Source of the DNA: Escherichia coli
Lineage (GTDB): Bacteria > Pseudomonadota > Gammaproteobacteria > Enterobacterales > Enterobacteriaceae
Direction: 5' to 3' (one strand)
Assembly (NCBI RefSeq): GCF_002854065.1
Contig: NZ_CP024153.1
DNA length: 64,000 bases
Position 1 is the stretch's first letter. Each line of letters begins with the position of its first letter. Below are positions 63,101 through 64,000 of this stretch, one piece after another. The position numbers are program-made.

Positions 63101-64000
63101 AGTTTGCGATTTACGTCGCTCAGCTGGTTGGTAACTATTTTCAACCCGGACTCCAGATCACCTGGGCCAGCTTCAAGGCAGCGCCGCAGATACTCTGACC
63201 GATTACCACCTGAAACCTGGTCTATATAGGCCAAAAGTTCATCTGATACTTTTGCGGTTATTGTTGGCATTCAGCCCTCACTTTGTGCATTTTTTAAACG
63301 AAAAAAGGGTGTCTAATACGGTGAAATCATAGTATTACCAAAGTAATAAATAAAAAATGTTTTAAATCAGTAAGTTAGATTAGATTTGTAATACCTGGGT
63401 AATACCGCAGCATGATTAAACTTGGTTTTTTTCTTTTAAATCAGTGAGATAGCGTGATTTATCACGCTGCGTTAGGTGTATAGCAGGTAACGGGATAAAA
63501 AATCATCTTTTTTTGGTAGGGCGATCACCGTAGGTTAAGGGTCATTTGGCTAAAAAGCGTCCTATTCTTTGATGGTCATGCTTGCATGACCATCTGAGCA
63601 ACCAAAACTACAGATAAACTACAAAAAACGTTTTGCCTTAGTGTTGGCAGACTACAAATAGACTACAATAAGACTACAAAGAAACTACAAAAACCGTGAC
63701 AGACTACAAAGAGACTACAATAAGACTACAAAGAAACTACAAAAACCGTGACAGACTACAAAGAGACTACAAGAAAACTACAGATAAACTACAAAACTCG
63801 ATTGACCCCTTCTTACGAGTGTTGTAGAGTCATTTTCATACAACGGAGGGGGTTATGAATAAACCAGCAGATCTGAAACCCCGCAACTTATCGGCTGCTG
63901 TCAGATTGCGCCTAAATGAAATGAACCACGGCAGCCTGGCGGCTGCAAATTGAAAACCGCCCCGGTTCGTCCTGTTGTTGCCGCACGCCCCGCAGAATAT

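What the first reader, a model, noticed from the sequence alone, without database searches (positions are those of the whole stretch)
63540..64000. Helical-phase 11-bp iteron array plus perfect palindrome upstream of a gene cut by an IS91-family insertion
About 14 ACTACAA(A/G) repeats at 10-11 bp spacing, including a ~50-bp block duplicated in tandem, preceded by a perfect 24-bp palindrome and followed by a promoter-like element and a well-positioned start codon. That ORF is interrupted after ~24 codons by the IS1294-like end. The architecture resembles parC-type centromeres or operators bound cooperatively by ribbon-helix-helix proteins; an RHH-like gene (62854..63270) is divergently placed ~300 bp away.
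Basis: seen in the sequence. Interest (0 to 1): 0.6.

Follow-up and report, generated by a model that had tools for sequence, protein, structure and literature searches.

The report
StbA-binding repeat array beside IncN oriT
The repeats are real, but they are the ordinary docking site (stbS-type centromere/operator) of the plasmid-stability protein StbA next to an IncN-type transfer origin. The gene cut by the insertion sequence is stbA itself, so this copy is an orphaned relic.

Summary
There are 14 same-strand ACTACA(A/G) units at 63607-63794. They are spaced 11 bp apart within sets of 2+4+4+4, and a 52-bp block is repeated 2.9 times. An 11+2+11 palindrome lies at 63571-63594, a TTGACC-17-TAGAGT promoter follows, and an ORF starts at 63855. 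An IS91-family (IS1294-like) left end cuts that ORF after codon 22.

The cut ORF is stbA (intact homologue: NCBIfam StbA_2 at 151.6 bits, cut-off 100; predicted fold best matches PDB 7PC1). The locus has the IncN/IncW layout: traI-traJ-traK, then oriT, then stbABC. The divergent RHH gene is TraK, the relaxosome accessory protein (93% identical to R46 TraK).

The repeat unit tracks StbA, not TraK. Two IncN plasmids encode the identical TraK protein. One has ACTACAA repeats with window-type StbA, and the other has TACATCA repeats with R46-type StbA.

R388 StbA is experimentally known to bind 11-bp-phased 9-bp repeats (stbS) upstream of stbA, for partition, autorepression and control of conjugation. 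This array is therefore a sequence variant of that known site, and it is present in more than 1000 sequenced plasmids. In this window both StbA and the T4CP gene are destroyed by IS elements. Interest is low to moderate.

The parts
62745..62852 (-). 5' remnant (36 codons, MDDRERGLAF...) of the T4CP gene traJ, cut by the right end of IS903B (the IS ends at about 62744)
   Evidence: ORF list and sequence. IS903B transposase is annotated at the homologous place in L001. In R46, traJ follows traK with the same 1-nt gap.
62854..63270 (-). traK: 138-aa ribbon-helix-helix relaxosome accessory protein (TrwA-like), apparently intact
   Evidence: 93% identical over 138 aa to R46 19577-19993, the first gene of the traK-traJ-traI operon. 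The C-terminus is 49% identical to the TrwA-position protein of an R388-like IncW plasmid. The N-terminus gives a weak RHH (MazE-family) hit at residues 4-33, E 3.6e-5, below cut-off. No Pfam hit.
63332..63405 (.). GTAATAC/GTATTAC motifs (63332, 63343, 63388, 63399), the last two 11 bp apart. These are the inferred TraK binding sites and traK promoter region.
   Evidence: The motifs are conserved in all IncN-type relatives, including R46-type ones (A2). Assignment to TraK is by analogy with TrwA and is not tested.
63451..63468 (+). Inverted repeat AGCGTGAT-tt-ATCACGCT: the relaxase-binding hairpin of oriT
   Evidence: I11. It is conserved in all IncN relatives (A2). The hairpin-TAG-pentanucleotide-nic layout is described for pCU1 oriT (PMC2943615).
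63470..63489 (+). nic region CGTTAGGTGT|ATAGCAGGTA, with the inferred nick between 63479 and 63480
   Evidence: GGTGTATAGC is invariant in the A2 alignment. It aligns with the R388-type nic region TTGTCT|ATAGCCC read in L009; the R388 nick position is from my own knowledge. The exact nick position here is inferred.
63571..63594 (.). Palindrome GATGGTCATGC-tt-GCATGACCATC. It is a conserved element about 90 bp 3' of nic and immediately 5' of the array. Its function is unassigned.
   Evidence: The core TCATGCTTGCATGA is invariant, while the outer arms change on both sides at once in R46/L010 (GTATT...AATAC) and L012 (CTTT...AAAG). An unrelated 10+3+10 palindrome occupies the same place in the R388-like plasmid. 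The ssDNA hairpin has dG -9.6 kcal/mol, z -3.7.
63607..63794 (+). stbS-type array: 14 direct ACTACA(A/G) units (11-bp consensus AGACTACAAAG) in sets of 2, 4, 4 and 4. It is the inferred binding site of StbA.
   Evidence: The position is homologous to the 13-unit TACATCA array of R46 and the stbDR array of R388. The unit co-varies with StbA type.
63697..63748 (+). Lineage-specific extra 52-bp block (4 units plus spacer) produced by tandem duplication
   Evidence: 96% identical to 63645-63696. It is absent from IncR relative L004, which has 2+4+4 = 10 units and a 52-column gap in A2. It is present in 74 PLSDB records at >=99% identity.
63802..63830 (+). PstbA: -35 TTGACC, 17-nt spacer, -10 TAGAGT. 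An inverted 6/7 copy of the repeat (TTGTAGA, 63818-63824) overlaps the -10.
   Evidence: Both hexamers are kept in L007 and L012 although their spacers differ (A2). The operator role of the inverted copy is speculative.
63855..63922 (+). Truncated stbA: the first 22 codons only (part of helix alpha1, no HTH), fused to 10 IS-derived codons
   Evidence: 100% identical to intact stbA of L001 up to 63922. The intact protein scores 151.6 bits against NCBIfam NF041290 StbA_2, cut-off 100. The AlphaFold model's best PDB match is 7PC1, the StbA DNA-binding domain (prob 0.97, rmsd 2.0 A over 54 columns).
63923..64000 (+). Left (tnpA-upstream) end of an IS91-family, IS1294-like element, running off the window
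   Evidence: Identical to L002 from TGAACCACGG onward. There it lies about 130 bp upstream of a 62-aa ORF and a 399-aa IS91-family transposase on the same strand. This exact junction was not found in PLSDB or in RefSeq complete E. coli genomes.

Best explanation
The array is the stbS-type binding site of StbA, in an IncN-type oriT/stb module. On the + strand, which is the inferred transferred strand, the order is: traK, TraK sites, relaxase hairpin and nic, palindrome, 14 ACTACAA units, PstbA, stbA. By analogy with R388, StbA dimers use an N-terminal tri-helical HTH to bind successive direct repeats one helical turn apart. They build a one-faced nucleoprotein complex with three roles. It serves as the plasmid's partition site. 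It represses the adjacent stbA promoter. Together with StbB, it gates conjugation from the neighbouring oriT. The ACTACAA unit is a specificity variant matched to a diverged StbA recognition helix. In this window the system is a relic. stbA is cut after codon 22 by an IS91-family element, stbB and stbC are gone, and traJ is cut by IS903B. What remains is an orphan StbA-binding array, an apparently intact oriT and traK. The array could work only if a co-resident plasmid supplies window-type StbA in trans.
For: SHOWN HERE
1. The repeats are real and clustered.
2. The cut ORF is stbA.
3. The synteny traI-traJ-traK / oriT / stbABC is identical to R46 and to conjugative IncN plasmids that carry the same ACTACAA array.
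4. Natural swap: L006 and L013 share the identical TraK (WP_001749975.1) and T4CP (WP_000342688.1), yet they have ACTACAA plus window-type StbA versus TACATCA plus R46-type StbA. The crossover maps between nic and the palindrome.
5. The positions equivalent to the R388 alpha3 residues N56/T59/S62 are N/S/T in R46-type StbA, whose unit TACATCA is close to R388's TGCATCA. They are T/G/M in window-type StbA, whose unit is ACTACAA. L012, with an intermediate StbA, has TACTACA units.
6. The same design, 11-bp-phased direct repeats with a family-specific unit between nic and stbA, is found in pDTG1 (GGGTGCA), an IncI2 plasmid (CATAGCA) and a Moraxella plasmid (TAGCAAAA).
7. Copy number varies among relatives (about 10 to 15 units), as expected for a repeat-binding site.
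8. The array is not near any rep gene in intact IncN plasmids.

FROM THE LITERATURE
R388 StbA binds two sets of five 9-bp stbDR separated by 2-bp spacers upstream of stbA. The stbDRs are required in cis, and StbA in trans, for both stability and control of conjugation. StbA also represses PstbA (PMC3098194; bioRxiv 10.1101/2022.04.29.490116).
Against: No binding experiment exists for the ACTACAA unit or for any IncN StbA. The assignment rests on homology, synteny and covariation across few independent lineages (about 4 IncN-like types plus R388).

Sequence similarity of window-type StbA to R388 StbA is weak (phmmer E 0.78).

In R46, stb was reported to matter for stability only in recA+ hosts (cited in PMC3098194). 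The partition role may therefore differ from R388.

Unlike R388, no secondary repeat clusters occur at other promoters in IncN plasmids.

In the window type the array lies wholly upstream of the -35, so how it would repress the promoter is not obvious.
Confidence: 0.87

Rival explanations
1. One reading: the array is an operator or centromere bound cooperatively by the divergently encoded RHH protein (62854-63270), as in ParR/parC.
For: RHH proteins such as ParR do bind 10-11-bp phased direct repeats, and an RHH gene lies 336 bp away.
Against: The RHH protein is TraK, the first gene of the relaxosome operon. An identical TraK protein coexists with two unrelated repeat units in L006 and L013. 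TraK is 93% identical between the window and R46 although the arrays share no unit. A separate conserved motif set (GTAATAC, 63332-63405) lies next to traK and is kept in both array types. There is no ParM gene.
Confidence: 0.04
2. StbA does bind the array, but only as a transcriptional operator and/or conjugation switch. In IncN-type plasmids it is not a partition centromere.
For: The R46 stb genes were reported to be needed for stability only in recA+ cells (cited in PMC3098194). Many IncR and hybrid plasmids keep stbA with a truncated stbB or none, alongside other partition systems. The array abuts a strong promoter.
Against: Ten to fifteen phased sites are far more than a simple operator needs. 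In R388 the 10-unit stbS, and not the 2-3-unit operators, is what confers stability. R388 stability needs StbA but not StbB, so loss of stbB does not argue against a partition role.
Confidence: 0.12
3. The repeats are replication iterons for the nearby RepB-family initiator (60503-61525) or another Rep protein.
For: Directly repeated short units near a rep gene are typical of iteron origins, and a rep gene lies 2 kb away in the window.
Against: An IS903B insertion separates the rep gene from the module. In intact IncN plasmids the same array lies about 22 kb from repA, between traK and stbA. The array occurs on IncN, IncR and IncX1/FIA/FIB hybrid plasmids with different replicons.
Confidence: 0.01
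4. The region encodes a structured leader or attenuator RNA or a small RNA rather than a protein-binding site.
For: It lies upstream of a gene and contains a palindrome.
Against: The array lies upstream of the conserved promoter, so the stbA mRNA would not include it. Rfam gives only one sub-threshold chance hit, 21.5 bits against a gathering score of 90. The repeats are A-rich direct repeats with no pairing partner.
Confidence: 0.01

Closest known systems
stbS / stbDR array and StbA of IncW plasmid R388 (Guynet et al. 2011, PMC3098194; StbA DNA-binding domain structure PDB 7PC1, bioRxiv 10.1101/2022.04.29.490116)
   Same: Both have short direct repeats on an 11-bp cycle arranged in sets, located between the oriT nic site and stbA and divergent from the RHH-T4CP-relaxase operon. 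In both, the downstream gene is a StbA-family HTH protein, and a palindrome sits about 90 bp 3' of nic just before the array.
   Different: The unit is ACTACAA instead of TTGCATCAT. The repeats are co-oriented with stbA, whereas in the R388-like locus they read as ATGATGCAA, the opposite orientation. There are 14 units in 2+4+4+4 rather than 5+5. The array lies entirely upstream of the -35 instead of around the promoter. No secondary operator clusters occur elsewhere in IncN relatives. StbA sequence similarity is weak (E 0.78). Here stbA is destroyed.
oriT-stb intergenic region of IncN plasmids R46/pKM101/pCU1
   Same: The gene order and lengths are identical. TraK is 93% identical. The hairpin and nic sequence are conserved, as are the palindrome core TCATGCTTGCATGA and the presence of an 11-bp-phased array before stbA (13 units in R46). 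From memory and not checked here: the 11-bp direct repeats of R46 oriT were described in the late 1980s (Coupland et al. 1987; Llosa et al. 1991).
   Different: The unit is TACATCA/TACAACA in R46. StbA is only 42% identical, with a diverged HTH. The R46-type promoter (TTGACA) lies inside the array, and the 41-bp segment carrying the window-type promoter is absent. The outer arms of the palindrome also differ.
ParR/parC type II centromeres (R1, pB171, pSK41) and TubR/tubC type III
   Same: All have arrays of about 10 direct repeats phased by one helical turn, in two or more sets around or before the operon promoter. Cooperative one-faced binding gives both autoregulation and segregation. The R388 authors draw this analogy themselves.
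   Different: The binder is an HTH protein (StbA), not an RHH ParR. There is no actin-like ParM or tubulin-like TubZ. The associated NTPase StbB is ParA-like and dispensable for stability in R388. The site is physically coupled to oriT.

Membership tests
StbA/stbS system (R388 type) | Array of short direct repeats with an 11-bp (one helical turn) period, in sets | tested here: met
   14 units, 11-bp spacing within sets of 2+4+4+4.
StbA/stbS system (R388 type) | Array located between the oriT nic site and stbA, divergent from the accessory protein-T4CP-relaxase operon | tested here: met
   Window layout. The same layout is seen in R46, L006, L007/L014 and the R388-like L009.
StbA/stbS system (R388 type) | The downstream gene encodes a StbA-family protein with an N-terminal tri-helical HTH | tested here: met
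   The intact homologue (100% identical over the retained 68 nt) scores 151.6 bits on NF041290, cut-off 100. The model's top PDB match is 7PC1 (prob 0.97, TM 0.61 normalised to the target, rmsd 2.0 A). In the window only codons 1-22 remain.
StbA/stbS system (R388 type) | stbB (ParA-like) and stbC follow stbA in one operon | tested here: not met
   Both are present in conjugative IncN relatives with the same array (L006, L007). stbB is truncated in L001. In the window the operon is interrupted by the IS at 63922 and the rest lies beyond the window.
StbA/stbS system (R388 type) | Repeat unit matches the stbDR consensus (C/T)TGCATCAT | tested here: not met
   The unit is (A/G)ACTACA(A/G). The difference parallels non-conservative changes at the alpha3 positions N56/T59/S62. 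This marks a specificity variant and does not exclude membership.
StbA/stbS system (R388 type) | StbA binds the repeats specifically, and the repeats are needed in cis for stability and control of conjugation | not testable with these tools
   Shown only for R388 (PMC3098194). Here it is supported indirectly by covariation and the natural module swap.
StbA/stbS system (R388 type) | Additional 2-3-unit operators at other promoters of the leading or maintenance region | tested here: not met
   No clusters of the unit occur outside the stbA upstream region in the complete IncN plasmid L014, in R46 or in the window.
Type II ParMRC partition locus (parC/ParR) | An RHH ParR encoded in the operon downstream of the repeats, and an adjacent actin-like ParM | tested here: not met
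   The downstream gene is stbA (HTH) and the next gene in relatives is ParA-like stbB. The only RHH gene is traK, in the divergent Dtr operon.
TraK/TrwA relaxosome accessory proteins (RHH) | First gene of the Dtr operon abutting oriT, followed by the T4CP and a MOBF relaxase, with homology to R46 TraK | tested here: met
   93% identity to R46 TraK. The traJ start is retained 1 nt downstream. The C-terminal similarity to the TrwA-position protein of the IncW plasmid has E 4e-10. No Pfam family matches.
IS91 family insertion sequence | Terminal sequence identical to that flanking an IS91-family transposase gene | tested here: met
   63923-64000 is identical to L002 positions upstream of a 62-aa ORF and the 399-aa IS91-family transposase WP_000948429.1. 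The transposase itself lies outside the window.

The most novel reading that the evidence does not exclude
ACTACAA-array plus window-type StbA may form a centromere/operator specificity class orthogonal to the R46 and R388 types. It would be exchanged as a cassette (palindrome + array + stbA) among IncN, IncR and hybrid plasmids by recombination just 3' of nic. Three recognition-helix positions (T/G/M versus N/S/T) would set the repeat specificity. As a corollary, the orphan array plus intact oriT in this window could let the plasmid borrow StbA, and the transfer machinery, from a co-resident IncN or IncR plasmid, or titrate that plasmid's StbA. The de-repressed PstbA would also read into the IS91-family transposase gene.
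Probability: 0.45. Interest if true: 0.4.

Novelty: new member of a known kind. Interest (0 to 1): 0.22.

Why it matters
For annotation, the result identifies an unannotated but very common cis-element (more than 1000 PLSDB plasmids) as a StbA site. It also corrects a tempting mis-assignment to the neighbouring RHH gene.

For plasmid biology, the matched pairs of repeat unit and StbA recognition helix give a small natural dataset for working out how StbA reads DNA. The pairs are TGCATCA, TACATCA, ACTACAA and TACTACA, plus GGGTGCA, CATAGCA and TAGCAAAA in other families. The dataset could also be used to predict StbA-based incompatibility or cross-talk between resistance plasmids.

For this particular tet(X4)-type hybrid plasmid family, the module is a decayed IncN remnant. 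It may still make the plasmid mobilisable in trans.

Tried and rejected
1. RHH/TraK as the binder: rejected by the natural swap of L006 and L013.
2. Replication iterons: rejected by context in intact IncN plasmids.
3. RNA element: Rfam gave only a chance sub-threshold hit.
4. Pfam on TraK gave nothing. A PDB sequence search with TraK gave only chance hits.
5. I looked for secondary ACTACAA or TACATCA operator clusters elsewhere, as in the R388 regulon. None were found in L014, R46 or the window.
6. I searched for the exact stbA::IS junction in PLSDB and in RefSeq complete E. coli genomes. It was not found, so the insertion is private to the source plasmid.
7. I tried to read Paterson et al. 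1999 (PMC93686) for the pKM101 oriT/stb description. The paper is not held. The pCU1 paper's oriT sequence is in figures and tables that the text does not contain.
8. Palindrome function: hairpin energy and covariation were examined. These could not separate a protein operator from an ssDNA hairpin, so the function is left unassigned.
9. The tblastn query for R388 StbA was typed from the 7PC1 alignment with a guessed N-terminus. It served only to fetch an IncW locus, and its 90.8% identity figure carries no meaning.

Full report
OBSERVATION

ACTACA(A/G) occurs 16 times in 64 kb. Fourteen copies lie at 63607-63794, all on the + strand (no shuffle of the window reached 16). Spacing is exactly 11 bp inside four sets of 2, 4, 4 and 4 units. 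The set-to-set offsets are 33, 19 and 19 bp.

Tandem Repeats Finder reports the 11-bp period (13.9 copies, consensus AGACTACAAAG) and a 52-bp period (2.9 copies, 94% matches). At 10.4-10.6 bp per turn, all 14 units lie within about 145 degrees of one face of the helix, so 'helical phase' is a fair description.

The palindrome GATGGTCATGC-tt-GCATGACCATC is at 63571-63594. It has 11-nt arms with a 2-nt non-symmetric centre. A single sigma-70-like site, TTGACC-17-TAGAGT (63802-63830), follows the array. After it come GGAGGGGG and an ATG at 63855.

WHAT THE CUT GENE IS

Megablast against PLSDB found the region in more than 2000 plasmids. The annotation under the match is 'stbA, plasmid stabilization protein'. 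In pYPE12-101k-tetX4 (L001) the ORF continues to 111 aa. The window is identical to it up to 63922 and then diverges. That point is codon 22 plus 2 nt, with a 1-nt ambiguity.

From 63923 the window is identical to the tnpA-upstream end of an IS91-family element (L002). The exact junction is absent from PLSDB and from RefSeq complete E. coli genomes.

The intact protein passes the NCBIfam StbA_2 equivalog model (151.6 bits, cut-off 100). Its best PDB sequence hit is the R388 StbA DNA-binding domain 7PC1, though weakly (E 0.78, residues 6-64). An AlphaFold model built on a 10-sequence alignment has pLDDT above 90 for residues 11-60. It again has 7PC1 as top structural match (prob 0.97, rmsd 2.0 A over 54 columns).

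WHAT THE LOCUS IS

R46, the IncN reference (L005), has mobF/traI, the T4CP gene traJ and a 138-aa gene on one strand. A 512-bp intergenic region follows, and stbA, stbB and stbC lie on the other strand. The window's RHH-like ORF (62854-63270) is 93% identical to that 138-aa protein, TraK. Its C-terminus resembles the TrwA-position protein of an R388-like IncW plasmid. TrwA is the RHH accessory nicking protein of R388 (PMC4853378). TraK is needed for relaxase action at pCU1 oriT (PMC2943615).

One nucleotide downstream of traK, the first 36 codons of traJ survive before IS903B. The intergenic region contains the conserved hairpin AGCGTGAT-tt-ATCACGCT (63451-63468). The invariant GGTGT|ATAGC follows it (A2), and this aligns with the R388-type nic region GTCT|ATAGC.

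The window therefore holds a decayed IncN-type module, bounded by IS903B and the IS91-family element. In order it contains: a traJ remnant, traK, oriT, the palindrome, the array, PstbA and a stbA remnant. It sits on a multi-replicon plasmid of the pig-associated tet(X4) IncX1/FIA/FIB family, which carries other partition genes (sopA, ParB).

WHO BINDS THE REPEATS

R46 has 13 units on the same 11-bp lattice at the homologous place, but the unit is TACATCA/TACAACA. R46 StbA is only 42% identical to the window type, with the divergence concentrated in the N-terminal domain.

Conjugative IncN plasmids exist with the window-type array (L006, L007/L014). L006 and L013 encode the same TraK protein (WP_001749975.1) and the same T4CP (WP_000342688.1). 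L006 has ACTACAA units and window-type StbA. L013 has TACATCA units and R46-type StbA.

In alignment A2, L006 follows the R46 type from traK through nic and switches to the window type about 40 bp before the palindrome. The repeat unit therefore segregates with stbA and not with traK.

In R388 the recognition helix alpha3 carries N56, T59 and S62. The equivalent residues are N, S and T in R46-type StbA, whose unit is close to R388's TTGCATCAT. They are T, G and M in window-type StbA. L012, whose StbA is 53% identical to the window type, has TACTACA units.

Other StbA loci show the same design with their own units:
- pDTG1: GGGTGCA
- an IncI2 plasmid: CATAGCA
- a Moraxella plasmid: TAGCAAAA

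A distinct motif, GTAATAC (63332-63405, two copies 11 bp apart), lies next to traK. It is conserved regardless of array type. It is the more plausible TraK site, but this is an inference.

MECHANISM

The following is shown for R388 and inferred here. StbA binds two sets of five 9-bp stbDR with 2-bp spacers upstream of stbA. The repeats in cis and StbA in trans are required for stable inheritance and for StbA's inhibition of conjugation, which StbB counteracts. StbA also represses its own promoter (PMC3098194; bioRxiv 10.1101/2022.04.29.490116).

I propose the same mechanism for the ACTACAA array. StbA would oligomerise cooperatively on one face of about 190 bp, ending 8 bp before the -35. An inverted 6/7 copy of the unit over the -10 (TTGTAGA, 63818-63824) may contribute to repression, but this is speculative.

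In the window StbA is reduced to 22 residues of helix alpha1, so the array is unoccupied unless a co-resident plasmid supplies the protein. PstbA would then be de-repressed and would point into the IS91-family ORFs, which lie on the same strand. That consequence is also an inference.

VARIATION

Relatives carry 10 units (L004, 2+4+4), 11 (L003 and L008, 3+4+4), 12 plus 3 degenerate units (L006), or 7 plus degenerate units (L007). The window lineage gained one 52-bp block, and 74 PLSDB records share the 14-unit form.

The window-type promoter hexamers are conserved in L007 and L012 despite different spacers. R46-type plasmids lack this 41-bp segment and have TTGACA inside the array instead.

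THE PALINDROME

The core TCATGCTTGCATGA is invariant. The outer arms change on both sides at once in three lineages. An unrelated 10+3+10 palindrome sits at the same distance from nic in the R388-like plasmid.

As ssDNA it would form a 10-bp hairpin (dG -9.6 kcal/mol, z -3.7). Its role is unknown. It travels with the stb side of the L006 recombinant.

COMPARISON AND NOVELTY

This locus works like R388 stbS/StbA and belongs to that family. The membership features that failed are the exact unit sequence and the extra operators at other promoters. The system is already characterised. The gene is already named stbA in RefSeq annotation. The IncN oriT repeats have long been known, a statement from memory that I did not verify here.

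What is modestly new is the recognition of a distinct ACTACAA specificity class, its cassette-like exchange, and the apparent pairing between helix residues and repeat unit. No binding data exist for it.

VERDICT

The feature is a new member of a known kind, and its interest is low to moderate.

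Noticed in passing
window 63571-63594; L005 20296-20317; L012 ~1281-1300; L009 1277-1299: A palindrome sits about 90 bp 3' of nic and just before the StbA array in both IncN-type and IncW plasmids. In IncN types the core TCATGCTTGCATGA is invariant while the outer arms change on both sides at once. The R388-like version is unrelated in sequence but has the same geometry. Its function is unknown (dimeric-protein site or T-strand hairpin).
   Followed up: partly
L006 (NZ_CP077413) 4982-5575 vs L013 (NZ_KT982616) 1028-1512; equivalent to window ~63520-63535: L006 is a natural recombinant. 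Its traK-to-nic segment is R46-type, and its palindrome, array and stbA are window-type. The crossover lies about 40-55 bp 3' of nic, so the stb side behaves as an exchangeable cassette.
   Followed up: yes
StbA proteins: L005 20506-20922, L007 5517-5945, L003 6528-6911, L010/L011 1501-1929, L001 3341-3673: The disordered linker of StbA contains a peptide repeat (D)SVLHNTQ in one to three copies, depending on the plasmid. The 111-aa form in the window's lineage (L001) has lost all but one copy (VLYNTQ).
   Followed up: no
window 63802-63830 vs L005 20375-20410: The stbA promoter has moved between lineages. In window-type and L012 plasmids it lies downstream of the array (TTGACC/TTGACA-17-TAGAGT/TATAGT). 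R46-type plasmids lack that 41-bp segment and have TTGACA-17-CATTAT between the two repeat sets. The homologous internal -35 is decayed in the window (TTGGCA).
   Followed up: partly
window 62745-62852 and ~61600-62744: traJ (T4CP) is truncated after 36 codons by IS903B (transposase 61719-62687). The module therefore lacks traJ and traI and could be transferred only with a helper plasmid.
   Followed up: partly
window 63360-63378 and 63434-63452: A direct repeat TTTTAAATCAGT(A/G)AG(T/A)TAG occurs twice, 74 bp apart, on either side of the GTAATAC motifs. The second copy abuts the relaxase hairpin, and TTTAAATCAGT is conserved in IncN relatives. It may be a relaxosome or IHF-type site.
   Followed up: no
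window 63332-63405: GTAATAC/GTATTAC motifs in direct orientation (11 bp apart) and inverted orientation lie next to traK. They are conserved in all IncN-type relatives whatever their StbA array, and are the likely TraK (RHH) sites and traK operator.
   Followed up: partly
L014 (NZ_CP124396, whole plasmid) and L005 (R46): Unlike R388, where stbDR pairs or triplets occur at several other promoters, IncN plasmids show no clusters of their repeat unit outside the stbA upstream region. This suggests StbA has a narrower regulon in IncN.
   Followed up: yes
window 63855-64000 and beyond: The IS91-family element is inserted with its ORFs on the same strand as stbA, directly downstream of PstbA. Without StbA that promoter should be de-repressed, so read-through into the transposase is possible. 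The IS flank here (CCTAAATGAAA|TGAACC) also resembles the flank of another copy in L002 (CTTAAATGTTA|TGAACC).
   Followed up: no
L016 (pDTG1) 719-852; L017 (IncI2) 660-790; L018 (Moraxella) 694-870: Other StbA-family loci have 11-bp-phased direct repeats with their own units (GGGTGCA, CATAGCA, TAGCAAAA) between nic and stbA. This holds even where the relaxase is MOBP and the accessory protein is MobC.
   Followed up: partly
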